In this document: positions 7,407 to 23,044 of the stretch, one piece after another
How the letters are laid out: every line of letters starts with the position of its first letter
Numbering within the stretch: the stretch's first letter is position 1
Assembly (NCBI GenBank): GCA_000002445.1
Contig: CP000071.1
Coordinates: 608,001 to 672,000, forward strand
Length of the DNA stretch: 64,000 nucleotides
Direction of reading: 5' to 3'
Origin: Trypanosoma brucei
Lineage: Eukaryota
Translations under genes and position numbers: made by a program
The notes under the pieces: generated by a model
The model's database searches: none
What the model was told of the DNA's origin: nothing
What the model saw: the letters and a program-made list of their open reading frames with translations, nothing else

Positions 7407-8278
7407 GTTTGTTATGTTCTGCAGACTACAGAAAAGAGGGTAAAAGTGTTGTCTCATTTTCCGCGGTAGATGACGAAAAACGACAGAAACCATGGATTGA
7501 ACCAATGGGTAAAGAACGCGAGCACCAAACTCATGCATATAAACTTCAATTACAAGCAACGAAATCTACGAGAGGCGTCGACGAGATAGGTGAAAGAGTT
7601 TTAAAAAAAAAAAACGTTTTAAATCGAGCGTCGTCAGTGGACTACGGTTGCGATAGCTCATACAACGACCACTACAGCCGTTGCCGATGTTCCAGTTGCG
7701 GTAAACAAGTGCACAACTCAAAAAATATGCCTCGATGGTCTACACGCCACTAAGCAGTGTGAATGCCAGCAGGTACGCACCTTGACGTTGGCATTGTGCC
7801 CGTGGATTGGGGGCACACGTTAGAACACCATTCTCAGAGTTCTTGTGCTCCCGCGTGTCCTCTTTCTAGTGTAATGCTCACGATGGTGGCACTTACCGCA
7901 GAGTTGCATCGTCCACAAACATCGCTCCTACTCAATTTACCATTTGGCATTTTTGTATACCCCGCCCACTGCGTACTCAGCGGGAGGGCCCACTTTGAAA
8001 GAAGAGCAAAAGGCTCTAAGCCAATCAAGCCCACAATTATGAAGGCGCCACCTTTCGAGCTTCAAATTTAATCCACGCGCAAGTTTGTACCTGCGCGCTT
8101 GCATATAAACAATCTATGGTATAGCGTGGAGGGACACTAAACACCTTTTAGCCACTTTGTTTCTTTTCCCACCTACTACACTGTTTCTATTCTATCAAAA
8201 ACCTAGAGGTTGCTGTCCTCGCTCCCTCGGGTTGCCCAGTGTACGGGCACAAGCGCAATACGTGCTCACTTCCTACCG

Positions 8279-9481
8279 CTACTTTTTAATCCCTGGAGCA
8301 CAAGGCTCCATTTCGTCACGCGTTAAGCGCGACGGCGATGGTGGGACAACAGTTCCATCAGAACATACCCTTTTCCGTACCGGGCTCTCTGTCGCCAACA
8401 CCTCTGTGTCGCTATCGTCCCCCGCCGAGGACTGCGTATCTGGCGTCACCGGCAAGTTGTTTTCCTCAGTCCCAGCTATTTCCCTGCCCCCGCATCCCAC
8501 TGTTGCTCGCGGTGCAGCCCCTGGTTTCCACTTCCTTAGCATATATGCGGGCAAGCTGCGGGTGGGGTGCATGGGTAAAGGATTTTTGATGTTCGCTGGA
8601 ATGGTTGCGGCTTTCGCCCCGAACATCTCATGCTTCGCGGCCCCACGGAGTGTGCTTCTTCCGCTGCGCAAGGATTTGGGAGCTGACCGAGCGACACAGA
8701 CACTAGAGCCGTCAACCGAAGCTCCAACATTCACAGTGTCGACTGTTGAGGAAACAACAGCTCCCGGAGCTGCGGAACTTTCACACGTTAGCGCTGCGAT
8801 GTCGCTGGTGGCGTTGCTTTTTGTGGAGCGGGACACCCCTGTGTCAGTCAGTGCGGAGGCGGGGTAAGCGGGAAGAGGCAGCTCAACGTCCACTCGACAA
8901 TTATGGAGAAAATCGCAGCCAAAATTGGTCCTCAGATCACTGAGTACCGTGGCTACCTGTGCAGGCACTGTACCGTGAGAGGTGGTTTGCACTCCATACT
9001 TCTGTGAGAAGAGACCCCATGGGGTCTTCAATAAAACGTCTCTCAAAGTTATGGGACTAATAGGAAGCTTCAGGAAGAACCGAGGCAATAGAAATACCTC
9101 GAGCTGCTCGGCATCTTCTTTAATCTCCCTTAACCTGTCACAACACAAGGACATTTCTTCCGGGTCACCCATTCCCCAGAGCAAAACCCGTGTCAGACGT
9201 GCGAGCAACTCCACTACTACGACACCTATAGACAACCGCATCGCGGCAGAACGCTTCCTTTTACCCAAGTTGCCCCCAATCCACTCAACAGCATTATTGC
9301 ACAGTGACAATAAATCGGAAGGTTTCAATGACTCTCCGCCGCCTTCGTTCGCACCGAACACACTTCGATGAATATCCCCCAGGATACTTTCCAACGTTTG
9401 TTCATCACGCGAGGTGCACCGAGATAGGGCAGAAACGCACTTCATAAGGTCCTCTTCGTGCATTCTATGACTACCAACCAC
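8279..9481 (-). CDS. Hypothetical protein (400 aa) with a Ser/Thr/Ala-rich low-complexity central region
   Basis: ORF track. Co-oriented with the minus unit. The overlapping plus-strand ORF 8157-8867 was judged spurious (antisense). Confidence 0.45.
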   Translation of the reverse strand: MVGSHRMHEEDLMKCVSALSRCTSRDEQTLESILGDIHRSVFGANEGGGESLKPSDLLSLCNNAVEWIGGNLGKRKRSAAMRLSIGVVVVELLARLTRVLLWGMGDPEEMSLCCDRLREIKEDAEQLEVFLLPRFFLKLPISPITLRDVLLKTPWGLFSQKYGVQTTSHGTVPAQVATVLSDLRTNFGCDFLHNCRVDVELPLPAYPASALTDTGVSRSTKSNATSDIAALTCESSAAPGAVVSSTVDTVNVGASVDGSSVCVARSAPKSLRSGRSTLRGAAKHEMFGAKAATIPANIKNPLPMHPTRSLPAYMLRKWKPGAAPRATVGCGGREIAGTEENNLPVTPDTQSSAGDDSDTEVLATESPVRKRVCSDGTVVPPSPSRLTRDEMEPCAPGIKK

Positions 9482-9920
9482 AGGTACTGTAAAAAAAAAA
9501 AAAGTGATAAAGCTAATAATACGAGAATAGGAAGGTAAAAAGAACGATCAGCGAGAGTTCGTGCACCTCTATGACCAGGGAGGGGGGAGGGGAGGGGAAA
9601 GCACCCTTGAGCACGAATCTAAACTGGTACCACCGAAGCGCAAATCACTTACATATTTCTTCCGCAGCGCGAACCTTCTGTTCGATAAGGGCGGCCGCCA
9701 ACAAGTCAATATGTGGAAAAAAAAAAAACAAAGGAACCGCGCCCAACAAATAAATAAATAATAATAATAGCACACCATTTGGTGTTCATCTTCCATTTTC
9801 CCCATTGGAATACCGAGGATGAACGGATACGCATGAGCCCGTCTATCAAACCATGCACCACCACAGTGAAGGGTAGCGCACGCGGCCACCCTGCCGACAA
9901 AACACATCGATCTGTGTCTC

Positions 9921-11105
9921 CTACAAATGCGGTTTTCTTCCAATATCGCCGTCTTGCGCAACCTCACGAATAATTTTAGCACAACCTTCGAGCTGCTCGA
10001 GGGTGACGAATTCGTTAGCTCCATGCGCCTGCAGAATCGAGCCAGGGCCGCAAACACCAACAGGGATACCGATACCCTGGTAATGTCCAGCTTCCGTGGC
10101 ATACGCAACCTTACGTACCGCGTTATCCCTTGCAATACGACGAAGCAAAATGAGAAAAGGATCTTCCTCATCCGCCTGCTTCAGAGGTGGTGCGCCGACC
10201 ATCTTCACAATTTCAATGCTTGCGCAATCGAATTCCGTCTTCATTAGTGGGAGGAGTTCACCTTCTGCATAGGTTTTGATTTGTTTTTCAATCAAACCCA
10301 AGTCAGTATTTGTTAGGTAACGCATCTCAAATACGAATTCACAAACTGCGGGTACGGTGTTCTCAGCGTTACCACCAGTCACAAGATTGGTTGATATCGT
10401 CGTGTTGGGAACGTCAAAGTATGAATCACACGTTCCGTTGCACCGGAAATCCTCGGCGATTTCGCGTATCTTCACAATGAGTTTAGCGGCATAGTCGATG
10501 GCATTGCAGCTCCGGCGTGTAAGTGCATACGAAGAGTGTGCCGCCTTCCCCTGCACACGAGCGCGGTAAACTGCTATTCCCTTGTGTGCAACAACAACCT
10601 GATTGGATGTTGGCTCCCCAACAATGCATCCGTAAGCCTTGACCCCTTGTTCACGAAGAAACTGGGTTAATACTTGGCCGCCAATACACCCCACTTCCTC
10701 ATCGTACGTCCACGCAAGGTGAATAGGTTTCCTTCGCTTCATTTGAAGAAGCTCTGGTACAAGAGACATGCAAACCGCGATGAAACCCTTCATATCACAC
10801 GTGCCTCGTCCATAGAACTTCCCATCTCTTTCTGTTAGAGTGAAGGGGTCACTCTCCCATTTCTGGCCATCTACCGGGACTACATCTGTATGACCGGAGA
10901 GGATAATTCCACCATCTGTTATCCCACCCTCACCTGCCAACGTTGCCCATAGATTCGCTTTTGTTTTCTCGTCGTTGTACACTAACGTGCTCGGTACGCC
11001 AAGGGCCGTAAGGTAGCTTCTTATGCAGTAAATGAGCTCGAGGTTCGAATTTCGGCTGGTAGTGTCATACGAAACAAGTTTCGCCAACCACTCTCTGCAG
11101 TTCAT
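9921..11105 (-). CDS. M20 family metallopeptidase (acetylornithine deacetylase ArgE/DapE-like)
   Basis: 394-aa ORF with M20 motifs: LSGHTDVVPVDGQKWESDPF (metal-binding His/Asp region), GRGTCDMKG, a catalytic Glu region (YDEEVGCIGG) and the C-terminal HGANEFV. Confidence 0.8.
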   Translation of the reverse strand: MNCREWLAKLVSYDTTSRNSNLELIYCIRSYLTALGVPSTLVYNDEKTKANLWATLAGEGGITDGGIILSGHTDVVPVDGQKWESDPFTLTERDGKFYGRGTCDMKGFIAVCMSLVPELLQMKRRKPIHLAWTYDEEVGCIGGQVLTQFLREQGVKAYGCIVGEPTSNQVVVAHKGIAVYRARVQGKAAHSSYALTRRSCNAIDYAAKLIVKIREIAEDFRCNGTCDSYFDVPNTTISTNLVTGGNAENTVPAVCEFVFEMRYLTNTDLGLIEKQIKTYAEGELLPLMKTEFDCASIEIVKMVGAPPLKQADEEDPFLILLRRIARDNAVRKVAYATEAGHYQGIGIPVGVCGPGSILQAHGANEFVTLEQLEGCAKIIREVAQDGDIGRKPHL

Positions 11106-12029
11106 CTTAGAAAAAGTTTATAGGTGGCCTATCCTAACAAATGTGCGTCCCTTACCTTCTTATATAAGCTGCCTCTAGGTGGTGCACATACAACAAATGA
11201 AAATATATATCATTTTCCTTTTTGTGGCGACAACCCGGCCGCTGTAACGGAGGTTTACGGCACCTTCTCCGAGAACGTAGTGGGGACACAGTCGTTACGA
11301 CAGCCTTGTTCACATCGCCATTGTCATATGCCCGCTATGATGCGACGTAACGGGAGAAATAAAAATGAATGCACCATAAACCCTTAAGAAAATAATGCAT
11401 TCCAACAGACCGAAAAATCCGACGCCACCTGCTGTCTGGTCCCTATTCCACTACAGCCACACACGGTGCACATGATAGAGAGCGGCAAACTTCATAGTGC
11501 GTTAAGTAACAAATGCGATAATTGTTCAATAACAACTCAGAAGCGAACTGCCTGGCGTGAGTAAAGAAATCAGCCCCCCCTCAACTTACCACATTTTTTC
11601 GCCCGCCCATTGTTCGTCACACCCCATGAGCAATGGTGCCTGAGTTCTTTCGGAGCAAACGTCTGCAAATAATAAGGGGGGTTTCGCCGTCTATATCAAT
11701 CGACACAGTGATCGGTAGGTTACCGGGAACTAAACAAAAACATTTTGGGCCTTTTCCAGTTGTGTGGGTCCATACTCGACAAGCACATTCACCTCCTACC
11801 TATCATTTGCAAAAAACAAGTCGAAGCACAAAGTTATTTTGTATATCATCCGATGTTCGTACACGTCTGCCTTCGCATTAACGCAGGGAATAGCAAATAT
11901 ATGCACATTTGCTTTTGAACGCAAAGGAGATACACAATGGATACAAAAACACGTAGCAGGTAACATACCACTTGATAAGTTGAATAGCTGAAGTGAGCTA
12001 TCCAAAAAGATATATGTCAGACGTGTGGT

Positions 12030-12917
12030 TCATCTCCGTCGGTGAATGAAAAAAGGGCCATCCCTCGTACACCATTCCACGCTGCACTCCTGCCAGCGAT
12101 AATCGGTCATGGCGAAAAGCCGGAACGCCTCTGGGTCACGGATCGCAGCGACAGAGCGGCTATGCGGATAAAGATCGTCAAAACATAGTATCCTCGTTCC
12201 GCTTGGAACCCGCCTGAAACGTTCGGAGAGATAGTGAGTCAGGGACTTTGGAAACAACAAGTTCGATAGAAGAATTACGGTTTTACCCCTTTCTGACTCA
12301 AAAAGTCTTTCATCCGCCAAAATCTTTGTCATATCGGAAGTAATTATGTTAACTTCCGGCATGCTTCGTCCCGAAGACCCCTCAAGTTCCGGTCTGATGA
12401 CCTCCCAAGCCTTTTTTGCAACTTTAGCGTTGTGTTCACTTATTTCAATTCCAACACAACGAGCACCAGTTAAAAAAGCTACCTGAAACAAAATAGATCC
12501 ATTACCACACCCCAGGTCGTAAAAGGTGTCTTCGGACGTTATTTCCATTAGGCGAACCATTCGCGAGACAAAGGTAGGTAGCAGGGACTTGGCACATAGA
12601 TGACGTGACCCTGACACTTCCGTTATGCGCTTGATATCTAAGCGTCTGAATGTGGCGTCCAAGAGACGTTCGAAGAAGACGCAGTGGCACTGGTCTGCTA
12701 GACAGTGGTGACAACCGCTTTTGTTGGGGTTACCCCGCAGAGGCAGATTGTACGGTTCATGAGGTGTCCCAGCTCCAAGTTCACCCTTGGGTACCAGTTC
12801 CCCCAATGGTGGTTTAAGTGCTTGTACACGATTCTCAGCCACACATTTGATTTCCCCTATCGGCTTACCTGAAGCCTCGCTTCTGGTACGTTTCCGGGAT
12901 ATTAGCAATCCAGGCAT
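12030..12917 (-). CDS. DOT1A: DOT1-family histone lysine methyltransferase (H3K76 methylation). Size, 295 aa, and synteny suggest DOT1A.
   Basis: 295-aa ORF. SAM-binding motif [28 protein letters not shown] matches the DOT1 motif I (xDLGSGxGxxVxQ). The protein is DOT1-core sized with no SET domain. The symbol rests on remembered T. brucei chromosome 8 synteny and is unverified. Confidence 0.65.
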
Positions 12918-13145
12918 AGATGTATGTAGTTTATAACTATTCTCACTACCACAATGTCATAATTATGAGGCAGATGCATGTTGCCAAGGTAGGATGACAT
13001 CAGAAAAACAATAAGTTTGAAGTTGTAAGCATAAAAAAAAAAGAAGCAAACAGGGTACGAGAAGCCACATAGAAAGAAATTTGCAACAATTATACAGGAA
13101 AATCCGGTAATCGCCCAAACAAAAGAATCTTAGTGGACACACGCA

Positions 13146-13976
13146 CTAATTCTTGAGTGCATCAAGGCGCTTCTGAATTGCCTGTTTTCTCCTTTCAAGA
13201 TGTTTTATGCGAAATTCTTCTTCAGTTGGTAACACGACATCAACAATGAAGGTTTCCTCAGCCATTTGGCTACGCCCAGGCGACGACTCGCTGCCGTGTG
13301 AATACACTGACCTAAGGTTACGCTCGGCCTCAGTTTCAATGCAGCGTAATAAGTCCTCGGAACCGCGTGAAGCAAGCTCCTCGCGGTAGAGAGTAGATGG
13401 TTTTGGCGCATCATCGTCGTCATCATCGGAATTCGATGAAGCATGTGAACCAGACTCCCAACCATCCTCTTCATTTTCCACATGGGCAACGACCTCCTTT
13501 GCATCGTCCCTTTTAGCCTCTGGTAGTCCAGCAGCGCACCCGAAGTAGATCTTTCGTGGAGCAGCCCTTCTGTGGGTTTCACCGTTTAGAGTGGCCAACC
13601 TGCGCTCCCATAAATTCTTCTTGGAAATTAGTTGATTTACTTCATCGTTTTTAGCGCGGACGACGACCTCGCCATGGGTTTCGATACTGACCAACTCAGG
13701 GTTCCGAAGTCGGGCAACCTTGTCTCCAATTTCTTGCTTGGTCTTGAAAATAACAAACTTCACAACATTGACATCGGCAGTTTCGAGTGGGCTAGAGGGA
13801 AGACTGCGTATTCCAAGGCTCGATAACCGCTTCTCATCAGCCTTGCGCTTCGCTAATCGGTAAAGGACGGTATTTTGTCTCTCTCTTTTCCTCGCTAATC
13901 TACCCTCGATTTCCCGCAAGTAGTCTTGCATACTATAAAAATACTGGAAATGAGCAAGTTGCGGATATATATGCAT
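13146..13976 (-). CDS. ISY1-like pre-mRNA splicing factor (NTC-associated), 276 aa
   Basis: Segments resemble ISY1: [43 protein letters not shown] versus human [45 protein letters not shown] versus YKYFGAAKDLPG; the C-terminus [35 protein letters not shown] versus QQKFIAHVPVPSQQEIEEALVRRKKMELLQKY. An acidic D-rich insert is also present. Based on my recollection of human ISY1. Confidence 0.5.
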   Translation of the reverse strand: [276 protein letters not shown]

Positions 13977-14213
13977 TTTTTTTAAAAAAAGAAAAACACG
14001 TTCCCCCTAAAGTAACGTGCAGCGACAAGTTAAACAGAAGAGGCATTGTACCATATAAATGTAGTCCCAGTTAAATCTGTACTAAGGAGGGAAGAGGAAA
14101 AACACTTCTTACCGCTGATTTGCTGAGTACTACTACCCCACTCCCCTCTAATCTTAAGTCAGCGACCTGCCGTACAACTCCCCCAGCGAATCACAGGTTA
14201 TGGGCCGACGCCC

Positions 14214-16103
14214 TTAGTCGGCCTTTCCATAACGATATATCCATCGAACAAACAAAAAACAGGCCAAGAAGCCTACAGATCCAGCTGCTACCGAAAAGAG
14301 AAAACTTAGTAAACCCATATAACCGACATACAAAACTGTGGGAACCATGCCCTCTATTTTCACACTTCCCTCCGTGGCGTAGTAGAGAGTGTAGAGGAAC
14401 AGGTACAACCCTGAGCTTGATCCAATGAAAAACGACTTCCACCACCAACGGTGATCCTCTGCACAAAGAGAATAGTAAATAAAAACTATCGCGGTCTCTG
14501 CGGTAATAATGACAAATAGAACGCCAACTAGGAAGAGGAAGCCGAAAATATAGTAAAATCTGTTCAGCCAGATTGCACCCAAAATAAAATAAGTCTCGAA
14601 AAAAACGGCAGCAAAAGGCGGGACGCCTGCTGATAAAACTGCCAGTGTTGACGAATACCAAGGCTGGGCGGGTATGTGGCGCGGAATCTGGTTGTAATTT
14701 GATGGAACGGATATGGTTCCCTGTTTGAATCCCAACACAGCACCGAAGTACACTAGTGGGAGACTGACAAAGAACCAGATACATACCACCAAAACAACTG
14801 AAGAAAACGGAACGGCGGCACTACTCGACTGAGACCAAACGAGTAGGTTTACCACAAAAAATATGGCAAATGATGACGCCGGTACAATGGTCCCGGTAAG
14901 AAAAACATACATCCACTTTGTTCTATTCCATAGTTTCAGCAGACGCGCTGAAACATACCCACCAGTAACACCAAGGAGAGCAAAGCAAACGAGGAGTGCT
15001 GTGAAAAGGCTGCCGCGGTTTTGTGGGGAGAAAAAGCCCATGGTGGCAAACACGACGACGGTGAACGACATACCTAATAGTTGTACACCAGCGCCGGTAA
15101 AGCACGCAAGAAGCCACCCATTGGGTGGCGGCCGAAAAACATCGCGACACAGTAACTTCCAGCCTATGTCATCTAAATATTCCGTTTCATCTATGTCCAC
15201 ATCGGCTAACTTGCCCAGGTCGCGGCGAACGATACGGACCAGCAAGACAGCAATAACGATTGTGAGAAAGATGACGAGTAAAGTAGAGTTCATAATGGAG
15301 TACCAGTGGTTTTTTTCCTTGTGAACACTTAAATAAATATCCCACCTAGTAGACCATTTTTCTTTACTCTCGATCCACGAAACGCCATAGCTCCATATGA
15401 TCCGGTCGGTATCCGCTGGGAGTGGCGCTATGTTAGATGCAAGGTGACCGTCGAGCGGTTGTGCACAAGGCGCTTCAGATTTGTGCGCTACAGAAGAAGC
15501 CTCAGCAACAAATGTCAAAATACGGTACTTTTCTTCGCCTCCATTTTGTTTAACGTTGTCTGGCGTATAACTGATAGTAAAATGTATGTGGTTGTTAACG
15601 TAACTTCTCCCATCGCGCATAAAACCGAGTGGAACTCCCATTACAAAATTATTGTTCCCACTCGCCTCGGCAAGAGGAAGACCGTCCATGAGAAGGTTAA
15701 TACGGTAATTTTTCTCAATGGCCTTCTTAAGGAACCTCGTCTGCTTATCTTTGTCCACCCCTTTTTCACAGACAACGCTGCAGCTGACGTTGCTGAGCAA
15801 ACGGATGTTTTCATAAGGAGATGTCTTAATCCGATCGCCCATAAGGGAACCTCCAATATTGTTTGATTTCTTTGAGATAGGTTCCTTTGGGCGGCATGTC
15901 GGAAGGGCTTTGTAGTAGTCATACGGTAAGTGGGTTCTGAGTGACGTCAGAACATTAACCTCAATCGGTACCACCTCATTCCGCGCAAATGCATGAGGGT
16001 TGATGCTTGGTAAAAGACAATCAACACTTCCACAAACGGCAATCAACCAAACGGTTAAGCTAACAAGATGTCCATATAGATTGTTGAGAAGCATCGCCAT
16101 CAA
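14214..16103 (-). CDS. Transmembrane 9 superfamily protein (TM9SF/EMP70 nonaspanin)
   Basis: 629-aa ORF with a signal peptide, a luminal N-domain, then nine hydrophobic helices in the C-terminal half. Conserved TM9SF blocks: RPP..GWLLACFTGAGVQLLGM, GGYVSARLLK, FLFLVGVLFVIITAETAIVFIYYSLCAEDHRWWWKSF, LYATEGS. Confidence 0.85.
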   Translation of the reverse strand: MMAMLLNNLYGHLVSLTVWLIAVCGSVDCLLPSINPHAFARNEVVPIEVNVLTSLRTHLPYDYYKALPTCRPKEPISKKSNNIGGSLMGDRIKTSPYENIRLLSNVSCSVVCEKGVDKDKQTRFLKKAIEKNYRINLLMDGLPLAEASGNNNFVMGVPLGFMRDGRSYVNNHIHFTISYTPDNVKQNGGEEKYRILTFVAEASSVAHKSEAPCAQPLDGHLASNIAPLPADTDRIIWSYGVSWIESKEKWSTRWDIYLSVHKEKNHWYSIMNSTLLVIFLTIVIAVLLVRIVRRDLGKLADVDIDETEYLDDIGWKLLCRDVFRPPPNGWLLACFTGAGVQLLGMSFTVVVFATMGFFSPQNRGSLFTALLVCFALLGVTGGYVSARLLKLWNRTKWMYVFLTGTIVPASSFAIFFVVNLLVWSQSSSAAVPFSSVVLVVCIWFFVSLPLVYFGAVLGFKQGTISVPSNYNQIPRHIPAQPWYSSTLAVLSAGVPPFAAVFFETYFILGAIWLNRFYYIFGFLFLVGVLFVIITAETAIVFIYYSLCAEDHRWWWKSFFIGSSSGLYLFLYTLYYATEGSVKIEGMVPTVLYVGYMGLLSFLFSVAAGSVGFLACFLFVRWIYRYGKAD

Positions 16104-18550
16104 CCTGAAGAGGATCTAAATGCAGATTGCAGTGGTAAACGAAAGGAGTTGTTCATTCATAAACACACGTGTATTCACGTACGTATACAGGCCGACAAAC
16201 ATATCCACGGATATGTTCACGTATGCAAGTGCTAAAGAGAATTCATTTTATGAAACGAAAGGACATATTTACAAACAGAACGCTGCACCACAAGGGCAGC
16301 CGCATGAAAGACTCGAGAGTGTCGAAAGAAAGAAAGAAAGGAAACTAACTGTACCGCTCCGGTTTTATTACACAAGCTTGATGTCCAGTAACCACGGTGC
16401 ATGCATCACGCCAACAACACTACCTCACGAACGCCATATTTTCGAGAAGGCCTAACAACAATAAAAGGAGGACCTCCTGCCCAAATCGCAGACGCCGCCC
16501 TACGGTCCAACAACATCAGAAGGGGAGCACCTGTGGTTTCGACCTCCCACGAGGGCCATGGCGGTAGCATCGCTCCGCGACCTTTACATGCAAACGAAGA
16601 ACTTGCGTGTGAGCCAGGTGCCTGGGGAGTGTTGTCCTAGCTGCCTGCCCCCGGGGCTCTGCGCTTACTCACTCCGGCCCCCACGCTGTGTGGCTGGGGG
16701 AGGGGTCGGAGGGCTGACCTGGCCGCCCTTTTATCACTCTCCTCCATCTCCTCCTCCCACTTCCGTTTTGAAACTATCGCCCTGGAAGCGGCGTCGGCGT
16801 TACGGCATGCAAGATCCAAGTCGATCGGAATGCGACTGGGGCGATTCCCAGAAAAAAAAACCAGGCGGCACGAAGTAAAACTTCTTAAACAAAAGGGTCC
16901 CAAAGAGCAGTCAACCAGGTGGGGACATTCAAGATATGGCTTGCGAATGCATTTCTAGGCTAAATATGGAGCCACAGGGACATAATAAAAGCACTAGCTA
17001 GCACAATTTTGATACTTCGGTTGCGCTTGCTTGGTTAACCAGTTGGGCGCGTGGTGCCCGCCAGCTGGTTGGACGGGGTTCTATGGAGTCACCTGGCCGT
17101 CCGTGGAACAACCAAGGGTTTCTGCCCGTTGTACGCGATGCCACCCTTGTGGGGCTCAACTGCCGGGCCCAGTGGCGTTTTTGCTTAGAGATTTCGTCTT
17201 TATAAATGGAGACTCCTGTATCCCCTCCCCACGAGCGGCCGCCGTGGGTTGTGGGCCGAATTGTCGGTGCCCAGCACCCCGTCCTTCGGAATGCACCCAG
17301 AGGTCGTCAATTCCTTTGAGAAGGCTATGTCCGGCCTGGTGGTCGGTGTCCGGCAACCTGATTGGTGGCAGGGTCCGCCGTACTCGCGGAGGGGCACGGC
17401 ATGTACGCCACTTCCTTTGCACAAGCAAGGTGAGTGTTTTTCCCTTGCGTGCCCGTATGTGTTTATCGTGCTCATTTCTTTTTTACGATACTCATTTTTG
17501 TTGGGACAGGGGGGTTGGTGAGTAGATGGGTAGGCCCGTGTGTGGCTGAATAATGGCGTTTGTGTTTTTACCTTTATAGGTAATGTAGGAGGGGAACGAA
17601 TGATTGGACTGAGTTACAATGAAGAAGACTGCTCACTGTTCCGTAGGTGCTAGCGAACCGTGGTTTGAGATGCGTTTTTTTGTTTTTGCGTAGAATTCAA
17701 TTTTCGATGGTTACCGAGGGAGGTCTAGCTGGTGAGCAGTGATCTCGTCGCGACTATTGATGAAAACGACATCAGTTTTATTTTTGTACTTCGCGATCAG
17801 TAGCGTACACCTACGTTATTTATATCTTTATTCCTTTTCGTGGAACCTCGTGAATCCCTTGTGTTTCTGGGGATGGGGTCGTTCCTGCGTTGATGGCAAC
17901 TTGTGGAAGGTTCTTCGTATTTTCAATGATTGACCGTTTTGCGTTTTGATGTTGGGATCTCAGTGCCGAAGAACTGAATGAAGGGAAATCCTTGGACACT
18001 GATAAAGCATATCAATGGTGTTCCAACGGACGGTTAGTCATTTGCCTTTATTGTACATATTCTTTTTTTAAGGTTTGAAAATCTTGGCTGCCTCACCGTT
18101 GAAGTATCAAAGCGGGGCCACATTTGCTTTTGTTACTTATGTTGGATCAGATAGGTTCTGCTGTGTCGGAGCGTTTCACCCCGCCACCGTGCCCGCTTGG
18201 ATGCATGCTTGTCTCCATTGAGTGTGAGAGTCCCAGAAAATAAGGGGTTGGTATATGCTGACGGCACATACCGTTTTTACCTATTCTTTAAAATGTAAGC
18301 AGGGGTTTACCTGTTTCTTACTTACCTATTCTTAACGATGCTGCCTCCTCCCAACGTTGGCCGTGGACATATACTGAAAATATTTTGGAGGAGTGCGCAG
18401 TACAAGATGGAACTTTGGTTGCAGTCCTGCTGATCCATCCATATGCTGTGACAGTGTCAACCGATCTTTTCGGAAAAAGCACGTTGGCTATGACTATTTT
18501 TCATTTGCCATCCCCAACTCTTTTGAAGCCATTGTTGTAATCTAGTCTGC
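16104..18550. promoter_or_regulatory. Divergent strand-switch region between the minus-strand and plus-strand polycistronic units; putative bidirectional RNA Pol II transcription start region
   Basis: All convincing CDS left of 16103 are on the minus strand and all right of 18551 are on the plus strand. The 2.4 kb between has no protein-like ORF. Composition is strand-asymmetric: AC-rich on plus (GT-rich on minus) at 16100-16560, a GC-rich core (>60% GC) with G-tracts at 16560-17430, and GT-rich on plus at 17430-18000. The GT-rich tract lies on the coding strand on each side, consistent with the reported GT-rich Pol II promoter architecture of T. brucei. Confidence 0.6.
16324..16341. repeat. 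(GAAA)4 microsatellite
   Basis: gaaagaaagaaagaaagg read directly. Confidence 0.8.
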
Positions 18551-18988
18551 ATGTTTTCGTTACGGGAGATACTTTCGCAACTTCCCTCCGACGGTGCAAC
18601 TAAATGGATACGGGTTGAGAATGTTAAATCCCCCATGTCAAGTTTGGATGTTTCCCAGTTGTTTCCCGATGCAGTGAGTTGGGATTTTTTGTCGAGTGTT
18701 CAAAGGACAGACTATCTCGTCACTTTTCGGAGTGAATCATTCGCTAGAAAAGCGATGCGAAGTGCATGCGGGTTTTCATACCTTGGTGAGAGGCTCAAGT
18801 TTTCATATGCGGAGCCTGGCGACATTGCAGAAGGCGCATCACCCGCGCGAGTGACAATTGCCCACCCCCGTCTATATTTGCTGCCTCCAGAGTTTTCTTA
18901 TGAGGAGCGAGTAGCTGAAGCAGATCGTATTATTGCATCTGTGAGCACAACCGATTCGTATAACAACGCCTGGGTAGATACCTACTAG
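18551..18988 (+). CDS. Hypothetical small protein (145 aa); first gene of the plus-strand unit
   Basis: ORF track. No recognisable domain. Positioned right after the strand switch. Confidence 0.4.
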   Translation: MFSLREILSQLPSDGATKWIRVENVKSPMSSLDVSQLFPDAVSWDFLSSVQRTDYLVTFRSESFARKAMRSACGFSYLGERLKFSYAEPGDIAEGASPARVTIAHPRLYLLPPEFSYEERVAEADRIIASVSTTDSYNNAWVDTY

Positions 18989-19301
18989 TTGGGCGCACTG
19001 CGGTTACAAGCCGTTTCCCCAATTTTTACCTTTTTGTTTCAATGCGTAACCACTTAATGCAGCAAAAGCGCTTGATCTACTTGTTGAGGCTTATAACCAC
19101 TGTGAATTACGCAATCAAGTAGTATCCACACCAGTCTAAGGTTGAGGTGGCATCTCTACTGTCTACCACTCCCCTCTTTAAAGCTGCCGCTGTTGTTGAT
19201 GTTTTCTCTTCATCTTTGGATACACGGCAAAACAAGTGTGGTTTAGATTATCACTTGCAAGTAAAGAACTTAACTGTGTGTGTTTTTTTAAAGCAACTAA
19301 C

Positions 19302-21434
19302 ATGCTCTCGTGGAATCCCGAAAGTTATGTCTCTGAAGCCGTTTCGCGCATTCTTGCAGAGGAAGCGAAACAGGGACGAGGTGGGGCGATACCATCTTAC
19401 TATGATGCAGTCACGTCACACCTGGAGGCACACGAATTATCCAAATCAATCAAAGTTGCATTAGAGGAGCAGAGAAGGCAAAACATTGGTATTTCCTGCG
19501 ATATTGGAGGAAACGTGTTGGAAATCTTATTTAACCCTGTCGACATCGAGGACGCTGGTGTTGCAGAAGAGCGTGTTAAAAAATGCGTAGCGGATATCGG
19601 ATGTCTTTTTGGGAACGTGTCGGATGAGTTGAATTCATTAAATGGAAAGAGTGGCTTAGTCGCCGTGTCTGAGGATGTTCTTGACATATTACACCATTTG
19701 CAAAGCATGGGTTTGTTGACAAATTTTCGTTTCAATCCAGTTTCAGAGAAGTTGGGGTGCATTCTGTCAGCGACCGATAGGTCAAGTATTTTAAAATCAA
19801 TGGTTCTGTACAACTCGCAGGTGGAATGGCCAAAAGGTATGACTCTGAATTTCACTGACTACATGAAGGCATGGCTTGTTGACAGAGTTGCTGCCCGATT
19901 GGAAGTTTTAAATGAGCACCGTGGTTGTTTGATCAGACTTGAGGATTTCGCGCGTGTATTTGGTACATCACGAGGCAGTTCAGTGTGGAAGTACGGTGTG
20001 TCTGTTTCCGACCTCGACGGCGAGCAAAAGTTTATTGGTTGCTTGGAGTTGGATGCACTCCGTCCCACTGCCGCCGCACATGCTGTTGAAGACCCGTTTT
20101 TTGATCATTTGGGCATGCAGTCCTGTGTTGCGTGCTGCCGAACGACAACTACGTCGTATTGCCTGGCCAATGCTCTCTCCGTGTGCTCCCACGGAGAAAA
20201 GGCGCTATTTTTCGTGCGTGAGTGGAGGGAAGTCAACGGTCCCGAGTCGAAGGACTCGCTTTTGAGTTTCACACTTTACTTTGGGTATGGAAAGCCCATA
20301 TCTGATGAAGGGGACGTACGTATAGGGGAAAATGATGATAAGCGAATCTACCTCCATAGTGAGAAAGACCAAATTGTTCGTACTTACAAACAGATGGGAG
20401 ACGTCAAACGGTACGAATCGCATGTGGAAACCGTTATTGCAAATAGCAAAAATGCTGATTTATTTCACAACATATCGGGTTACATCGGCGAAACAACGTG
20501 TGAGAACTTGGAAAGAGCCATGTCTTTGTTTCCTCGTATGTGTGTTGTTGCCTCTTGCATTGGCAACGAGAATGCTGTTTGTGTTTCTGTTCTTAAGGCG
20601 GCTGATGTTCTGAGGGGAGACGCTACGTTCGTATTTTGTATATCACAAAGATCACCATTGTTCAACCATGTGTTCGCACCACGATCGCAGGTAACGTTGA
20701 ATTTTCTGTTCGACAATGCACAGGCGGTGTGCCAAGCTATAAATGACACGTATCCCCTATGGATCAATGAGACCGGAAATGAGCCCGTCGTCTTTGAGAG
20801 TGAATCGAGGACTTACGTTACAACAAAAGCTTTGATGGACATCTCCAAGCAGGTCGCCTTTGAAACTGCGGAGTCGTTTCTTGTTGGTGAAGAAGTGCTG
20901 GTTGTGGGCCGGTGCCTTGACAGTATCCCAAGTACAGTAGTAATAAATGTGAAAAACACACTTGTTCTGCAAGACCACGTTCCCCCACAGGAATTCTACC
21001 CCTTTCTCTTCACGATCGTTCACAAGATATATGGTACTGTTGGCTTCGTTGGGTATGGGTGCCAATTGTGTTCCCTGTCTCCTCTGACAATGTACATTTA
21101 TTCTCCAATTGAGTCATCTCAGTTTGCTTTGGACGAAGTGTATACGGGTCCAAAATGTAATTTGACTTTTCTTTCGAGTTTTGGAGCACCAATTTTTGAC
21201 GGCAAAGATTTCGAAGAACTGGGTTGTGGCATGCCAATGGCTGCCAGCAGCGTCTCCTCACTGCCTCAGCAGAACATTTATTTTCAAGTAGAGGGCATGC
21301 TGATACGCATCGTGCGAGACATCAGCGACAAATACGTTATCTGTGTGGTGGCTGCTAACGAGTGCAGGTTTAATCAGACCGATCCTTGTAAGCTGCTTGT
21401 GCGCCCGGATGATGAGCGCCTCATCCCAGCTTAA
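19302..21434 (+). CDS. Hypothetical protein, about 710 aa (ORF from 19236; likely start at Met 19302, MLSWNPESYV...)
   Basis: Long ORF of non-repetitive composition. Polypyrimidine tract plus AG at about 19200-19235 upstream of ATG 19302. The antisense ORF 19400-19855 was judged spurious. Confidence 0.55.
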   Translation: MLSWNPESYVSEAVSRILAEEAKQGRGGAIPSYYDAVTSHLEAHELSKSIKVALEEQRRQNIGISCDIGGNVLEILFNPVDIEDAGVAEERVKKCVADIGCLFGNVSDELNSLNGKSGLVAVSEDVLDILHHLQSMGLLTNFRFNPVSEKLGCILSATDRSSILKSMVLYNSQVEWPKGMTLNFTDYMKAWLVDRVAARLEVLNEHRGCLIRLEDFARVFGTSRGSSVWKYGVSVSDLDGEQKFIGCLELDALRPTAAAHAVEDPFFDHLGMQSCVACCRTTTTSYCLANALSVCSHGEKALFFVREWREVNGPESKDSLLSFTLYFGYGKPISDEGDVRIGENDDKRIYLHSEKDQIVRTYKQMGDVKRYESHVETVIANSKNADLFHNISGYIGETTCENLERAMSLFPRMCVVASCIGNENAVCVSVLKAADVLRGDATFVFCISQRSPLFNHVFAPRSQVTLNFLFDNAQAVCQAINDTYPLWINETGNEPVVFESESRTYVTTKALMDISKQVAFETAESFLVGEEVLVVGRCLDSIPSTVVINVKNTLVLQDHVPPQEFYPFLFTIVHKIYGTVGFVGYGCQLCSLSPLTMYIYSPIESSQFALDEVYTGPKCNLTFLSSFGAPIFDGKDFEELGCGMPMAASSVSSLPQQNIYFQVEGMLIRIVRDISDKYVICVVAANECRFNQTDPCKLLVRPDDERLIPA

Positions 21435-21739: not shown

Positions 21740-23044
21740 ATGGTGGTGGAGTACCTTGGTCCAGCAGACGTGCAGCGTTTGCTTGCGCTCCTTAGCGAAG
21801 GGAATTGTAAGTTTTCTTTCGTAGAGAAAGAATTTAAGGAAACGTTTTCTAAAGACACTTTCGCTAAGGTGTCAAGGGCCATACAACGAATGATTCATGA
21901 TATGATTGCCTCACCTGACGGTGTTGGACTAGTGTCATCTTTTTTCGTTCTTGATGTTATGTGCAAGATGAACTGTGAACAGGCGAAGTCAGCGTTTTAT
22001 GATGCGTTGCTAGAGTTGGAGCGAATCATGCGGCAAGACGTTTGCGTCATGGAGCAGATCAAGTATGCCTCAAAGGAAGCAAAGGAAGGAAGAAGAGCAC
22101 ACGAATCTGTTAATTCAGAGAGATACCGTCTACGTTCAGCGGTGAAGAGTTTTGCCTTTCGGTTACTTGCCAACAGGGTTGCGCCTGATGAAACACCACT
22201 CATGGCCATAAGTGACAAGCAAGAACAAATCGACACCGCCCTAAACGCATGGGAGAGCAACAGTATATGTCTCAAGGAACCCATTGCGGGTGTTGCAGAG
22301 GCGTGGACGCTAGAGGCAGAGAAAAATGCATGTGGAACCCTTTCCAGGATTTCTGCAACCCTTGATAATGGAGGACGGGCTGCGCTGGTACTGAAACCGG
22401 TAACACCCCAACTTCCTTCGTTGTCCCTGGTGTCTGGTGAGCTTCAGTTTCTGCTGCCGGCTTCTCCTCTAAACGATCTCCTTTTAATTAACAGTGAGGT
22501 TCCAACGGAGGAGTGGAAAACTGCAAAAAGAATGGTTGCCGCAGGTTGCAAGGGGCTACTTAATAAAGAGGAGCAGCAAAAATTGCTCCAAACACTTTTG
22601 GCAGGGGACGTCTTTGCGCGTGTTGGAATAAGCAGTGTGGTACTCAGTCGCATGGCCGAACACAATCCAGATGTTGCCGCCTCGCTAATACTGAAGCTTC
22701 CAGCCCAGGAGGCAAACCAATGCGTTCAGAGTATACTAAAGAGTTCTGTGCCATCGGAGCATGTAGAAACTGTCTTGTTACATGCTTCAAAAGTGCTGCA
22801 GCAAGCGAGCTTTCGTGCATACATTACCAACAAGCTTCATCATTTCAAAGAAAAGACGACACTATCCAACGAGGACAAAGATGAGGTGAAAAATTTTGTC
22901 AGGACTCTTCACCAGCTTTTAACAAAAGCGTCGAAAGAAAACAAGGAGTTATACGTTGCTGACACGCTAAAGACTGATATAACTCGACTTTGTGAGAGGT
23001 GTGATATTCCTGAAGTGGTTACGAGATGGGATGAACTAAAGTAA
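21740..23044 (+). CDS. Hypothetical conserved helical protein (434 aa)
   Basis: ORF track. Composition is mostly alpha-helical (L/A/E/K rich). A T15 polypyrimidine tract at 21551-21565 lies upstream. No confident family assignment. Confidence 0.5.
   Translation: MVVEYLGPADVQRLLALLSEGNCKFSFVEKEFKETFSKDTFAKVSRAIQRMIHDMIASPDGVGLVSSFFVLDVMCKMNCEQAKSAFYDALLELERIMRQDVCVMEQIKYASKEAKEGRRAHESVNSERYRLRSAVKSFAFRLLANRVAPDETPLMAISDKQEQIDTALNAWESNSICLKEPIAGVAEAWTLEAEKNACGTLSRISATLDNGGRAALVLKPVTPQLPSLSLVSGELQFLLPASPLNDLLLINSEVPTEEWKTAKRMVAAGCKGLLNKEEQQKLLQTLLAGDVFARVGISSVVLSRMAEHNPDVAASLILKLPAQEANQCVQSILKSSVPSEHVETVLLHASKVLQQASFRAYITNKLHHFKEKTTLSNEDKDEVKNFVRTLHQLLTKASKENKELYVADTLKTDITRLCERCDIPEVVTRWDELK

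What the first reader, a model, noticed from the sequence alone, without database searches (positions are those of the whole stretch)
16104..18550. Divergent strand-switch region with a tripartite composition: AC-rich, then a GC-rich core with G-tracts, then GT-rich
Coding polarity flips here, with leftward genes up to 16103 and rightward genes from 18551. The 2.4-kb ORF-free interval has strand-asymmetric skew. The region next to the minus unit is AC-rich on the plus strand, which is GT-rich on its coding strand. The region next to the plus unit (17430-18000) is GT-rich on the plus strand. Between them lies a GC-rich core of about 900 bp (16560-17430) with G-runs such as ggctgggggaggggtcggagggctg (potential G-quadruplex) and a spurious Cys/Arg/Pro-rich ORF. 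This matches bidirectional Pol II initiation zones marked by GT-rich elements and H2A.Z/H4K10ac in T. brucei. The GC-rich core is also a candidate location for a small Pol III or non-coding RNA gene, but I could not recognise a tRNA, snRNA or 7SL by eye.
Basis: partly seen in the sequence, partly recalled or inferred. Interest (0 to 1): 0.5.

Follow-up and report, generated by a model that had tools for sequence, protein, structure and literature searches.

The report
Known trypanosome divergent transcription start region
This is the already-catalogued head-to-head boundary on Trypanosoma brucei chromosome 8 from which RNA polymerase II transcribes two gene arrays in opposite directions; its skewed arms and GC-rich centre are real, but I found no sign of a hidden RNA or protein gene in the centre.

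Summary
The window is T. brucei TREU927 chromosome 8, 608,001-672,000. The interval 16104-18550 lies between Tb927.8.1940 (EMP70/TM9SF, minus strand) and the plus-strand genes Tb927.8.1945 and Tb927.8.1950.

The composition claims hold:
- AC-rich left arm, keto skew -0.18.
- GC-rich centre with the highest GC of the 64 kb. It is really two ~60% GC lobes around an A-rich spacer.
- GT-rich right arm, keto skew +0.28.

Kolev et al. 2010 (Table S14) already list Tb927.8.1940 and Tb927.8.1950 as first ORFs of two 'Divergent' putative Pol II units. The main interpretation is therefore supported, and known.

Corrections:
- The right 480 bp is not spacer. It holds a mapped trans-spliced transcript, Tb8.NT.36 (18073-18434).
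- There is no canonical G4 motif, although the G-run scores 2.08 on G4Hunter.
- GT-rich 10-mers are strand-pure, but several internal intergenic regions are equally dense. There is no poly-G.
- Rfam, ARAGORN, folding, Pfam and conservation give no support for a small RNA or protein gene in the core.

One extra result: six Trypanosoma species carry a GC-rich block upstream of EMP70. They share no sequence there, and the far side of the boundary is a synteny break.

The parts
14214..16100 (-). Tb927.8.1940, endosomal integral membrane protein (EMP70/TM9SF). It is the first ORF of the leftward Pol II unit.
   Evidence: Exact protein match to XP_847027/AAZ12961. Pfam EMP70 is recorded on its orthologues. 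Kolev Table S14.
16101..16345 (-). Predicted 5' UTR of EMP70 (about 211 nt), the AG acceptor at 16313-16312, and a polypyrimidine tract at 16345-16320, which reads as (GAAA)n on the plus strand.
   Evidence: Read from the sequence. TRF finds (GAAA)4 at 16324-16340. A 21-nt polyY run lies at -244 from the ATG. The splice site is inferred; it is not in the held part of the published tables.
16104..16399 (-). AC-rich arm on the plus strand, which is GT-rich on the EMP70 coding strand.
   Evidence: Keto skew -0.18 to -0.25. AC 10-mers number 19-21 per 400 bp, about the 95th percentile.
16400..16830 (.). GC-rich lobe A. C5 runs at 16648 and 16678 switch to G5/G4/G3 runs at 16696-16713. It contains the highest-GC windows of the 64 kb. 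The 106-codon ORF 16558-16878 that T. b. gambiense annotates as CBH13209 starts here and runs 48 bp past the lobe end.
   Evidence: GC 0.59, GC skew -0.11. GC rank. Run positions. ORF annotated only in gambiense, as a singleton cluster. A positional counterpart exists in five other Trypanosoma species.
16687..16718 (+). It is a non-canonical G4 candidate.
   Evidence: G4Hunter 2.08. It has only three G3+ tracts, so it fails the canonical regex. No hairpin beyond shuffles.
16831..17010 (.). A-rich spacer with an A9 run (16852-16860). The keto-skew inversion point is at about 17006.
   Evidence: GC 0.44, AT skew +0.32. Cumulative skew minimum at +906 from the ATG.
17011..17430 (.). GC-rich lobe B. 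It carries most of the chance 164-codon R/G/P/C-rich ORF 17031-17525, which runs on to 17525.
   Evidence: GC 0.605. No Pfam hit in any frame. ORF length is within the shuffle distribution.
17431..18072 (+). GT-rich arm. It is the likely dispersed promoter / initiation zone of the rightward unit. It ends in the polyY tract 18040-18070 and the AG at 18071-18072.
   Evidence: Keto skew +0.28. There are 43-45 GT 10-mers per 400 bp and no AC 10-mers. Exact Wedel 10-mers lie at 17674-17688 and 17775-17787, on the plus strand only. G6 at 17509, G4Hunter 1.68.
18073..18434 (+). Tb8.NT.36, a published 361-nt trans-spliced and polyadenylated transcript. It is the first mapped RNA of the rightward unit.
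   Evidence: Kolev Table S7 gives 626073-626434 (+). The coordinate falls exactly after the AG at 18071-18072.
18529..19112 (+). Tb8.NT.37, which I equate with the mRNA of Tb927.8.1945. It holds a 145-aa 'T. brucei spp.-specific protein' (CDS 18551-18988).
   Evidence: Kolev Table S7 gives 626529-627112 (+). An AG lies at 18527-18528. The protein is an exact match to CBH13210. The equation with Tb927.8.1945 is inferred from gene order and accession order; no source consulted states it.
19302..21434 (+). Tb927.8.1950, the first annotated ORF of the rightward Pol II unit.
   Evidence: Exact match to XP_847028. Kolev Table S14.

Best explanation
The interval is the divergent strand-switch region at T. 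brucei TREU927 chromosome 8, about 624.1-626.6 kb. From it RNA polymerase II transcribes two polycistronic units in opposite directions: Tb927.8.1940 to 8.1670 leftward, and Tb8.NT.36 / 8.1945 / 8.1950 to 8.2660 rightward.

**Shown.**
- The gene polarity.
- The catalogue entry of both units as 'Divergent' Pol II units.
- The positions of the first processed RNAs on the plus strand.
- The skew inversion.
- The strand-pure GT-rich 10-mers.

**Inferred from the published model of such regions.** Each half is a separate, largely unidirectional, dispersed promoter, ordered outward from the centre:
1. a GC-rich block;
2. coding-strand G/T-rich DNA, which favours H2A.Z/H2B.V deposition and directional initiation;
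3. a polypyrimidine tract and splice acceptor of the first transcript.

On this reading the arms are skewed because each is transcribed in one direction only and carries polyY and UTR signals. The roughly 1-kb GC-rich, nearly skew-neutral centre would be the inter-promoter zone. In most T. brucei divergent SSRs this zone lies between the twin H4K10ac peaks and is where ORC1/CDC6 binds. The core shows no sign of an RNA or protein gene.
For: **Identity and coordinates.**
- Exact protein matches to TREU927 chromosome 8 genes.
- An offset of 608,000 is fixed by four independent checks. Poly(A) site plus 3'UTR length gives the stop codons of Tb927.8.1940 and Tb927.8.1960. The splice sites of Tb8.NT.36 and Tb8.NT.37 fall exactly after AG dinucleotides.

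**Published status.**
- Kolev 2010 Table S14 lists both units as 'Divergent'.
- Table S7 puts the first plus-strand RNA at 18073, so rightward initiation must lie upstream of it, in or beside the GT-rich arm.

**Composition.**
- Skew and GC numbers.
- Wedel Dataset EV1 10-mers: 10 exact hits on the plus strand at 17674-17787 and none on the minus strand there. With up to one mismatch, 24 against 1 in 17501-18000.

**Model.**
- Directional GT-rich promoters, and a non-transcribed centre between divergent units (Wedel 2017).
- Two unidirectional promoters per divergent SSR (Cordon-Obras 2022, as summarised in PMC13532274).
- ORC1/CDC6 binds centrally between the twin H4K10ac peaks, and 62 of 88 divergent SSRs are bound (Tiengwe 2012).

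**No gene in the core.**
Against: - No nucleotide-resolution TSS, Pol II, H2A.Z, H4K10ac or ORC1 data for this locus could be inspected. Table S14 names units, not start coordinates.
- The GT-rich signal is not locus-specific. Several internal intergenic regions of the same window score as high or higher.
- Poly-G, the strongest Wedel 10-mer, is absent. The longest G run is 6.
- The leftward arm has only two exact Wedel 10-mers, both within the splice-site polyY tract.
- The role assigned to the GC-rich centre is inferred from general statements about divergent SSRs, not from this locus.
Confidence: 0.9

Rival explanations
1. The GC-rich block, especially lobe A next to EMP70, is itself a functional and positionally conserved promoter-architecture element. 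It could be a CpG-island-like core promoter, a nucleosome-organising platform or an ORC-binding platform, kept by selection on composition rather than on sequence.
For: **GC maximum in every species examined.** A 200-bp GC maximum lies upstream of the EMP70 ATG, 2.8-6.8 sd above the downstream unit. It is at +250 to +650 in five species and at about +1150 to +2900 in T. vivax.

| Species | z |
|---|---|
| T. brucei | 3.5 |
| T. grayi | 5.2 |
| T. theileri | 3.8 |
| T. melophagium | 4.7 |
| T. vivax | 6.8 |
| T. cruzi | 2.8 |

- In four of the six species it exceeds every window of the unit.
- It persists although the gene on the far side is different in each lineage, i.e. across a synteny break.
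- It persists although BLASTN and k-mer sharing find no common sequence beyond poly-T.
Against: - This is one orthologous locus only. Generality across divergent SSRs was not testable here.
- T. theileri and T. melophagium are close relatives, so there are fewer than six independent lineages.
- The T. cruzi signal is weak.
- Within Trypanozoon the core is not less polymorphic than coding sequence: 14.9 variants per kb against 4-12.
- A neutral origin is equally compatible.
Confidence: 0.3
2. The GC-rich centre is a neutral by-product. It is the only stretch not transcribed in a fixed direction, so it lacks transcription-coupled skew and polyY/UTR constraints. It may also be driven GC-rich by GC-biased repair or gene conversion at a break-prone, rearrangement-prone boundary.
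For: - Near-zero keto skew in the core, flanked by opposite skews.
- No conserved motifs.
- Intermediate polymorphism.
- The boundary is a synteny breakpoint among Trypanosoma species.
Against: - The amplitude is large: 0.64-0.77 GC against 0.37-0.43 in neighbouring genes in T. grayi, T. vivax and T. theileri.
- The distance from the first gene is consistent across species.
- No direct evidence for biased gene conversion in trypanosomes was examined.
Confidence: 0.3
3. The core hides a small Pol III-transcribed or other structured non-coding RNA gene.
For: The only matches are weak mir-like and PreQ1-like Rfam hits at E = 3-5.
Against: - No Rfam family reaches gathering score anywhere in 15900-18800, while the same scan finds two snoRNAs elsewhere in the window.
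- ARAGORN finds no tRNA.
- MFE z-scores are -0.5 and -0.1 for the two strands of the core and -0.4 to +0.5 for sub-regions.
- No nucleotide conservation outside Trypanozoon.
- No novel transcript is listed between 16104 and 18072 in Kolev Table S7.
Confidence: 0.03
4. The core encodes a Trypanozoon-specific protein, either the 106-aa ORF 16558-16878 (annotated in T. b. gambiense as CBH13209) or the 164-aa ORF 17031-17525.
For: - The 106-aa ORF is an annotated 'T. brucei spp.-specific protein' in DAL972.
- Six of the ten variable sites in the 164-codon ORF fall at third codon positions. I counted this by hand from the variant list, and it is not significant.
Against: - No Pfam hit.
- The ORF is not annotated in TREU927 or the T. 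equiperdum genomes.
- It forms a singleton cluster.
- None of the four variable sites in the 106-codon ORF is at a third position.
- The ORF length is reached by 5% of shuffles at this GC content.
- The 164-codon ORF has no ATG start.
- No spliced transcript is mapped there.
Confidence: 0.04
5. The G-runs form G-quadruplexes that are the operative element of the region, affecting initiation, base J or R-loop formation.
For: - G4Hunter scores 2.08 at 16687-16718 and 1.68 at 17496-17534.
- G4 ChIP-seq in T. brucei reports enrichment at transcription start sites (PMC13316426).
Against: - No canonical four-tract motif.
- PQS density of the interval is 2.45 per kb, and 21% of equal-sized windows match or exceed it.
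- The strongest site is on the template strand for the adjacent EMP70 unit.
- No locus-level G4 data are available.
Confidence: 0.1

Closest known systems
Divergent transcription start regions of T. brucei Pol II polycistronic units (Siegel et al. 2009; Kolev et al. 2010)
   Same: - Head-to-head units.
- A gene-poor gap of about 2 kb.
- Coding-strand G/T skew that flips in the gap.
- This very boundary is listed in Kolev Table S14.
   Different: Nothing that sets it apart. Chromatin marks were not inspected for this locus.
GT-rich dispersed promoters (Wedel et al. 2017, PMC5579346)
   Same: - Strand-biased G/T-rich 10-mers sit on the coding strand at the 5' end of the unit.
- The orientation is correct on both sides.
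   Different: - No poly-G tract, which is the most enriched 10-mer in that study.
- Density is no higher than in some internal intergenic regions.
- The leftward arm is weak.
- Promoter activity was not tested.
Sequence-specific unidirectional core promoters in divergent SSRs (Cordon-Obras et al. 2022, Cell Rep 38:110221)
   Same: A two-half, mirror-like layout is compatible with two separate unidirectional promoters, each just upstream of the first transcript (summary).
   Different: The paper is not held. Its motifs could not be compared with this sequence.
Leishmania major chromosome 1 strand-switch region (Martinez-Calvillo et al. 2003; PMC1805754)
   Same: A short divergent region from which both units start. 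From my own knowledge, its G/C tracts switch strand near the centre, as the runs here do at about 16685.
   Different: A different genus with no sequence relation. Here the tracts are short (5-6 nt).
T. cruzi GC-rich strand-switch centromeric domain (Obado et al. 2005)
   Same: A GC-rich strand-switch domain in a trypanosome.
   Different: - That domain is 16 kb and, from my own knowledge, is made of degenerate retroelements.
- Here the region is about 1 kb with no retroelement or protein-domain trace.
- None of the chromosome 8 origins named in the passages I read is near 0.62 Mb. No centromere annotation for this position was checked.
Metazoan CpG-island dispersed promoters
   Same: A GC-rich, motif-poor, broad initiation zone flanked by H2A.Z nucleosomes. 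The analogy was drawn by Wedel et al.
   Different: CpG observed/expected in the lobes is 0.83-0.84, not enriched. Transcription here is polycistronic, and initiation is reported to be strand-biased.

Membership tests
Trypanosomatid divergent strand-switch / Pol II transcription start region | Two gene arrays point away from each other across a gene-poor gap. | tested here: met
   Minus-strand genes run 2513-16100 and plus-strand RNAs and genes run from 18073 onward.
Trypanosomatid divergent strand-switch / Pol II transcription start region | Experimental evidence of Pol II initiation in both directions (5'-triphosphate RNA). | tested here: met
   This was a look-up of published results, not a re-analysis. 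Kolev 2010 Table S14 lists Tb927.8.1940 (-) and Tb927.8.1950 (+) as first ORFs of 'Divergent' putative Pol II units.
Trypanosomatid divergent strand-switch / Pol II transcription start region | Coding-strand G-over-C and T-over-A skew that inverts in the gap. | tested here: met
   Keto skew goes from -0.18 to +0.28, with the cumulative minimum at about 17006.
Trypanosomatid divergent strand-switch / Pol II transcription start region | Twin peaks of H2A.Z/H2B.V, H4K10ac, H3K4me3 and BDF3. | not testable with these tools
   No ChIP-seq tracks are available. This is a general property of such regions according to the literature.
GT-rich promoter element (Wedel 2017) | 10-mers at least 6-fold enriched on the coding strand, concentrated at the 5' end of the start region. 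| tested here: inconclusive
   - Rightward arm: 10 exact hits on the plus strand against 0 on the minus strand, and 24 against 1 with one mismatch (+2.1 sd).
- Four internal bins score higher.
- Leftward arm: only 2 exact hits, both within the polyY tract.
GT-rich promoter element (Wedel 2017) | Long poly-G tracts (G10 is the top-ranked 10-mer). | tested here: not met
   The longest G runs in the interval are 6 (at 17509) and 5 (at 16696).
GT-rich promoter element (Wedel 2017) | Drives orientation-dependent reporter transcription and H2A.Z deposition. | not testable with these tools
   This needs a luciferase reporter and MNase-ChIP. The fragments tested in that paper are on chromosome 10, not here.
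Sequence-specific 75-bp core promoter (Cordon-Obras 2022) | Three functional motifs within 75 bp upstream of the first gene, under a focused Pol II peak. | not tested
   The paper is not held, so the motif sequences are unknown to me.
G-quadruplex-forming sequence | Four G3+ tracts with loops of 1-7 (or up to 12) nt. | tested here: not met
   None lies in 16104-18550. The window has such motifs only at 1584, 2281, 8471, 8549, 9578, 33242, 33295, 38883 and 56910.
G-quadruplex-forming sequence | G4Hunter score of at least 1.2 to 1.8 (window 25), as used for T. brucei by Monti et al. 2026. | tested here: met
   16687-16718 scores 2.08 and 17496-17534 scores 1.68. Overall density is not exceptional.
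G-quadruplex-forming sequence | Folded G4 detected in chromatin or in vitro. | not testable with these tools
   No supplement with peak coordinates is held.
Small structured RNA gene (tRNA, snRNA, 7SL, snoRNA and others) | A match to a covariance model or tRNA detector. | tested here: not met
   The Rfam gathering scan gives no hit in the interval. The E-value scan gives only E = 3-5 noise. ARAGORN finds none.
Small structured RNA gene (tRNA, snRNA, 7SL, snoRNA and others) | Thermodynamic stability beyond shuffles, and conservation. | tested here: not met
   z-scores run from -0.5 to +0.5. There is no BLASTN similarity in five other Trypanosoma species.
Protein-coding gene in the core | Domain or homologue, a codon-position substitution pattern, an ORF longer than chance, and a processed mRNA. 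| tested here: not met
   - No Pfam hit in six frames.
- The only annotation is a singleton.
- ORF length is within shuffles.
- No transcript is listed.
- A remote-homology search of the large protein databases was not spent on these ORFs.
ORC1/CDC6-bound site or replication origin | An ORC1/CDC6 ChIP signal central in the SSR, or an MFA-seq peak. | not testable with these tools
   - General rule: 62 of 88 divergent SSRs are bound, centrally.
- The chromosome 8 origins named in the passages I read are at 0.86, 1.45 and 1.9 Mb, not 0.62 Mb.

The most novel reading that the evidence does not exclude
[quoted passage not shown] It would be maintained by composition rather than sequence.

At this locus the block has stayed attached to the EMP70 unit in six Trypanosoma species. 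That holds despite complete sequence turnover and despite a different neighbouring unit in each lineage.

If this is general and functional (core promoter, nucleosome organiser or ORC platform), it would add a third compositional element to the current 'GT-rich plus chromatin' picture of these promoters.
Probability: 0.25. Interest if true: 0.5.

Novelty: already known. Interest (0 to 1): 0.18.

Why it matters
As it stands, this is a correct recognition, from raw sequence alone, of a catalogued divergent Pol II start region. It adds nothing new about T. brucei transcription.

Two practical results:
- **Corrected anatomy.** The first plus-strand RNA starts at 18073, not 18551. The 106-aa gambiense gene model in the core is probably spurious.
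- **A cheap, testable lead.** The GC-rich block upstream of EMP70 recurs in six species without sequence conservation and across a synteny break. If a meta-analysis over all divergent SSRs shows the same block, it would bear on the open question of what defines Pol II promoters in trypanosomatids.

Tried and rejected
1. **Small RNA gene in the core.** Rfam at gathering and E-value thresholds, ARAGORN, and RNA and DNA folding against shuffles were all negative.
2. **Protein or retroelement relic in the core.** Pfam on all ORFs and on six-frame translations found nothing.
3. **Lobe A and lobe B as a duplicated or inverted pair.** The local alignment score is no better than shuffles. The 27-nt direct repeat from the repeat finder is chance-level.
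4. **Nucleotide conservation outside Trypanozoon.** BLASTN against the T. vivax, T. theileri, T. cruzi, T. melophagium and T. congolense loci found nothing.
5. **Shared k-mers upstream of EMP70 in six species.** Only poly-T / polyY was shared.
6. **Orthologue of Tb927.8.1950 as a second anchor.**
   - The search found only T. b. gambiense and T. congolense.
   - The T. congolense protein has no contig on record.
   - The T. congolense EMP70 contig stops before the SSR.
7. **Canonical G4 regex.** No match in the interval.
8. **VSG 3'UTR 16-mer, to explain the CFB2 dependence of Tb927.8.1945 mRNA.** Absent, and I gave the 16-mer from memory.
9. **EMP70 splice-site coordinate.** The relevant tables of Kolev 2010 are truncated as stored, and the Nilsson 2010 supplements lack the gene.
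10. **Papers and supplements not held.** Cordon-Obras 2022 and Siegel 2009 are not held. No supplements are held for the 2026 G4 ChIP-seq paper.
11. **A metagenomic kinetoplastid EMP70 locus (L013/L014).** EMP70 is internal to a unit there, so it is irrelevant.
Full report
**Identity of the window.** Five ORFs around the interval are exact matches to proteins on record, four of them in T. brucei brucei TREU927 chromosome 8:

| Window position | Strand | Product | Accession |
|---|---|---|---|
| 12030-12917 | - | DOT1-type H3K79 methyltransferase | AAZ12959 |
| 14214-16100 | - | EMP70/TM9SF | XP_847027 |
| 18551-18988 | + | 145-aa 'T. brucei spp.-specific protein' | CBH13210 in gambiense |
| 19302-21434 | + | conserved hypothetical | XP_847028 |
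| 21740-23044 | + | CNOT11 | AAZ12963 |

The supplementary tables of Kolev et al. 2010 (PMC2936537) fix the coordinates.
- The poly(A) site of Tb927.8.1940 (622048) plus its 3'UTR length (166) gives 622214. That is the stop codon at window 14214.
- For Tb927.8.1960, 631132 minus 88 gives 631044, which is window 23044.
- The 5' ends of the novel transcripts Tb8.NT.36 (626073) and Tb8.NT.37 (626529) fall on window 18073 and 18529. Each is the first base after an AG dinucleotide.

The window is therefore Tb927_08_v4:608,001-672,000. The finding is chr8:624,104-626,550.

**Check of the observation.**
- Coding polarity flips as described.
- Keto skew (G+T-A-C)/N is -0.18 in 16104-16559, +0.04 in 16560-17430 and +0.28 in 17431-18000. 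The core is 57.6% GC, and its 300-bp windows (up to 0.62) are the highest of the whole 64 kb, about 3 sd above the mean.
- The cumulative keto skew reaches its minimum at about 17006.
- The quoted G-run and the R/G/P/C-rich 164-codon ORF are present.

1. The core is two unrelated lobes. Lobe A is 16400-16830 (GC 0.59, slightly C-rich on the plus strand). Lobe B is 17011-17430 (GC 0.605, slightly G- and T-rich). They are separated by an A-rich spacer, 16831-17010 (GC 0.44, with an A9 run).
2. The arms are strongly strand-pure, with 43-45 GT-type 10-mers per 400 bp and no AC-type 10-mers in 17300-17800. Comparable densities occur at internal intergenic regions near 26.8-27.2, 47.1-47.5 and 56.3 kb. 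The AC arm is only at the 95th percentile.
3. The interval is not empty. Kolev Table S7 lists a 361-nt trans-spliced, polyadenylated transcript, Tb8.NT.36, at window 18073-18434. It also lists Tb8.NT.37 at 18529-19112, which carries the 145-aa ORF and which I equate with Tb927.8.1945 from gene and accession order. The true non-genic gap is about 16350-18070.
4. No canonical G4 motif exists in the interval. G4Hunter gives 2.08 for 16687-16718, one of five sites at or above 1.8 in the window, and 1.68 for 17496-17534. The overall density of predicted sites is unremarkable.

[quoted passage not shown] It lists two units, both of type 'Divergent':
- Tb927.8.1940 to Tb927.8.1670, minus strand;
- Tb927.8.1950 to Tb927.8.2660, plus strand.

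The anatomy fits the published model of such regions.
- Initiation is strand-biased, and coding-strand G/T-rich DNA drives it directionally. The centre between divergent units is non-transcribed (Wedel et al. 2017).
- Two separate unidirectional promoters sit in one divergent SSR (Cordon-Obras et al. 2022, as summarised in PMC13532274).
- ORC1/CDC6 binds centrally between the twin H4K10ac peaks in most divergent SSRs (Tiengwe et al. 2012).

I scanned the window with the 157 usable 10-mers of Wedel's Dataset EV1.
- The rightward arm has 10 exact hits (17674-17688 and 17775-17787), all on the plus strand. That is 10 of 82 plus-strand hits in 64 kb.
- With one mismatch, 17501-18000 has 24 plus-strand hits against 1 minus-strand hit (+2.1 sd).
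- The leftward arm has only two exact hits, both in the (GAAA)n polypyrimidine tract that I take to be the EMP70 splice signal.
- Poly-G, the top-ranked 10-mer of that study, is absent.
- Membership in the 'GT-rich promoter' class is therefore met in orientation but not in strength. Activity is untested.

**What the GC-rich core is not.**
- Rfam finds two TB8Cs3H1 snoRNAs elsewhere in the window but nothing in 15900-18800 above noise. ARAGORN finds no tRNA.
- Both strands of the core fold no better than dinucleotide shuffles, with z = -0.5 and -0.1. Sub-regions around the G-run give z between -0.4 and +0.5.
- Pfam finds nothing in any ORF or in any of the six frames.
- The longest stop-free stretch (170 codons) is reached by 5% of shuffles at this composition.
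- The 106-codon ORF 16558-16878 is annotated only in T. b. gambiense (CBH13209) and forms a singleton cluster. None of its four variable sites lies at a third codon position.
- Among four Trypanozoon genomes, variant density is as follows:

| Segment | Variants per kb |
|---|---|
| Core | 14.9 |
| Left arm | 30.5 |
| GT arm | 24.6 |
| Coding sequences | 4-12 |
| 145-aa ORF | 2.3 |

The core is not strongly constrained. No transcript is listed between 16104 and 18072.

**Comparative result.** I fetched the EMP70 locus from T. b. gambiense, T. vivax, T. congolense, T. theileri, T. melophagium, T. cruzi and T. grayi.
- The EMP70-Isy1-DOT1-M20 side is syntenic everywhere.
- The gene on the far side of the boundary differs in each lineage and is not Tb927.8.1950. 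The boundary is therefore a synteny breakpoint.
- BLASTN finds no similarity of the SSR outside Trypanozoon.
- The only k-mers shared upstream of EMP70 are poly-T / polyY.
- Even so, every species has the same order: an AC-rich stretch next to the ATG, then a local GC maximum.

| Species | GC maximum (200 bp) | Position from ATG | z against downstream unit |
|---|---|---|---|
| T. brucei | 0.66 | +525 | 3.5 |
| T. grayi | 0.715 | +550 | 5.2 |
| T. theileri | 0.65 | +550 | 3.8 |
| T. melophagium | 0.67 | +350 | 4.7 |
| T. vivax | 0.765 | +2000 | 6.8 |
| T. cruzi | 0.61 | +250 | 2.8 |

- In four of the six species the maximum exceeds every window of the 5.7-16 kb of downstream unit that I scanned.
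- In five of six species the block nearest the ATG has zero-to-positive G-over-C skew and positive T-over-A skew on the EMP70 sense strand. The automatic block definition used there was crude.
- The block thus travels with the EMP70 unit.

Whether this is a functional promoter-architecture element or a neutral consequence of being the one stretch without unidirectional transcription cannot be decided from one locus. GC-biased repair at a break-prone boundary is another possibility. I did not find the feature described in the papers I could search. That is not proof that it is undescribed.

**Mechanism, with status of each step.**
- Shown: head-to-head units; published designation as divergent Pol II units; the first plus-strand processed RNA at 18073; skew inversion at about 16700-17000; strand-pure GT-rich DNA on the rightward arm.
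- Inferred from general knowledge of these regions: two unidirectional dispersed promoters; H2A.Z/H2B.V/H4K10ac nucleosomes over the arms; a non-transcribed centre that may bind ORC1/CDC6.
- Inferred from sequence only: the EMP70 splice acceptor at 16313-16312 after the polyY tract 16345-16320, giving a 5'UTR of about 211 nt.
- Speculative: lobe A acts as the core of the leftward promoter and lobe B as the core of the rightward promoter.

**Verdict.** This is a real feature, correctly read by the first stage, and already known. Interest is low. The only element that might repay further work is the positionally conserved GC block.

Noticed in passing
window 18073-18434 (+): Tb8.NT.36 is a published 361-nt trans-spliced and polyadenylated transcript (0.55 RNA per cell). 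It lies inside the supposedly empty interval and holds only a roughly 34-codon ATG ORF. Together with the 145-aa ORF, it is the least polymorphic part of the region among Trypanozoon genomes.
   Followed up: partly
window 18529-19112 (+): The mRNA of Tb927.8.1945 (which I equate with Tb8.NT.37) is reported to fall, together with VSG2 mRNA, on CFB2 depletion (PMC8051951). The VSG 3'UTR 16-mer, which I gave from memory, is absent from the whole window even with 3 mismatches.
   Followed up: partly
window 46057-46119 and 47719-47781 (+): Two identical copies of the H/ACA snoRNA TB8Cs3H1 (80.5 bits each) lie 1662 bp apart. This indicates a tandemly repeated snoRNA cluster.
   Followed up: no
window 1584-1598: A C15 tract, i.e. 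G15 on the coding strand of the leftward unit. Poly-G is the most strand-enriched 10-mer at the 5' ends of T. brucei start regions in Wedel's data set, yet this tract lies inside a unit with no internal start listed by Kolev.
   Followed up: no
window 9578-9597 and 33242-33320 (+): These are the only canonical three-tetrad G4 motifs on the plus strand with loops of 7 nt or less. Both lie outside the strand-switch region.
   Followed up: no
window 45001-45400 (+): This is the strongest AC-rich 10-mer peak of the window. It lies on the plus strand inside the plus-strand unit, i.e. with the opposite skew to its surroundings. It sits at the end of the 3034-codon ORF, just upstream of the snoRNA cluster.
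   Followed up: no
L002 (T. vivax) about 5000-6900: At least 1.7 kb of 65-77% GC lies upstream of EMP70. It carries an annotated 385-aa gene with no Pfam hit and long ORFs in all six frames. The gene model is probably spurious.
   Followed up: partly
L007 (T. melophagium) 451-1275: The divergent neighbour is an RNase_PH gene model. Its low-complexity N-terminal extension runs into the GC-rich block only about 250 bp from EMP70. The start codon is probably mis-called.
   Followed up: no
window 16324-16340: The (GAAA)n tract, which is the polypyrimidine tract of EMP70 on the minus strand, differs by one 4-nt unit among the four Trypanozoon genomes.
   Followed up: no
window 16104-18550 compared with L002, L005, L006, L007 and L012: The strand-switch region is a synteny breakpoint. 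The EMP70-Isy1-DOT1-M20 side is conserved across Trypanosoma. The opposite unit starts with a different gene in each lineage: a trans-sialidase in T. cruzi, a 661-aa protein in T. theileri, and RNase_PH in T. melophagium.
   Followed up: partly
window 60785-61855 (-): A 356-codon TTG-start ORF lies on the minus strand, inside a unit that Kolev lists as plus-strand through to Tb927.8.2660. It is probably spurious or antisense.
   Followed up: no
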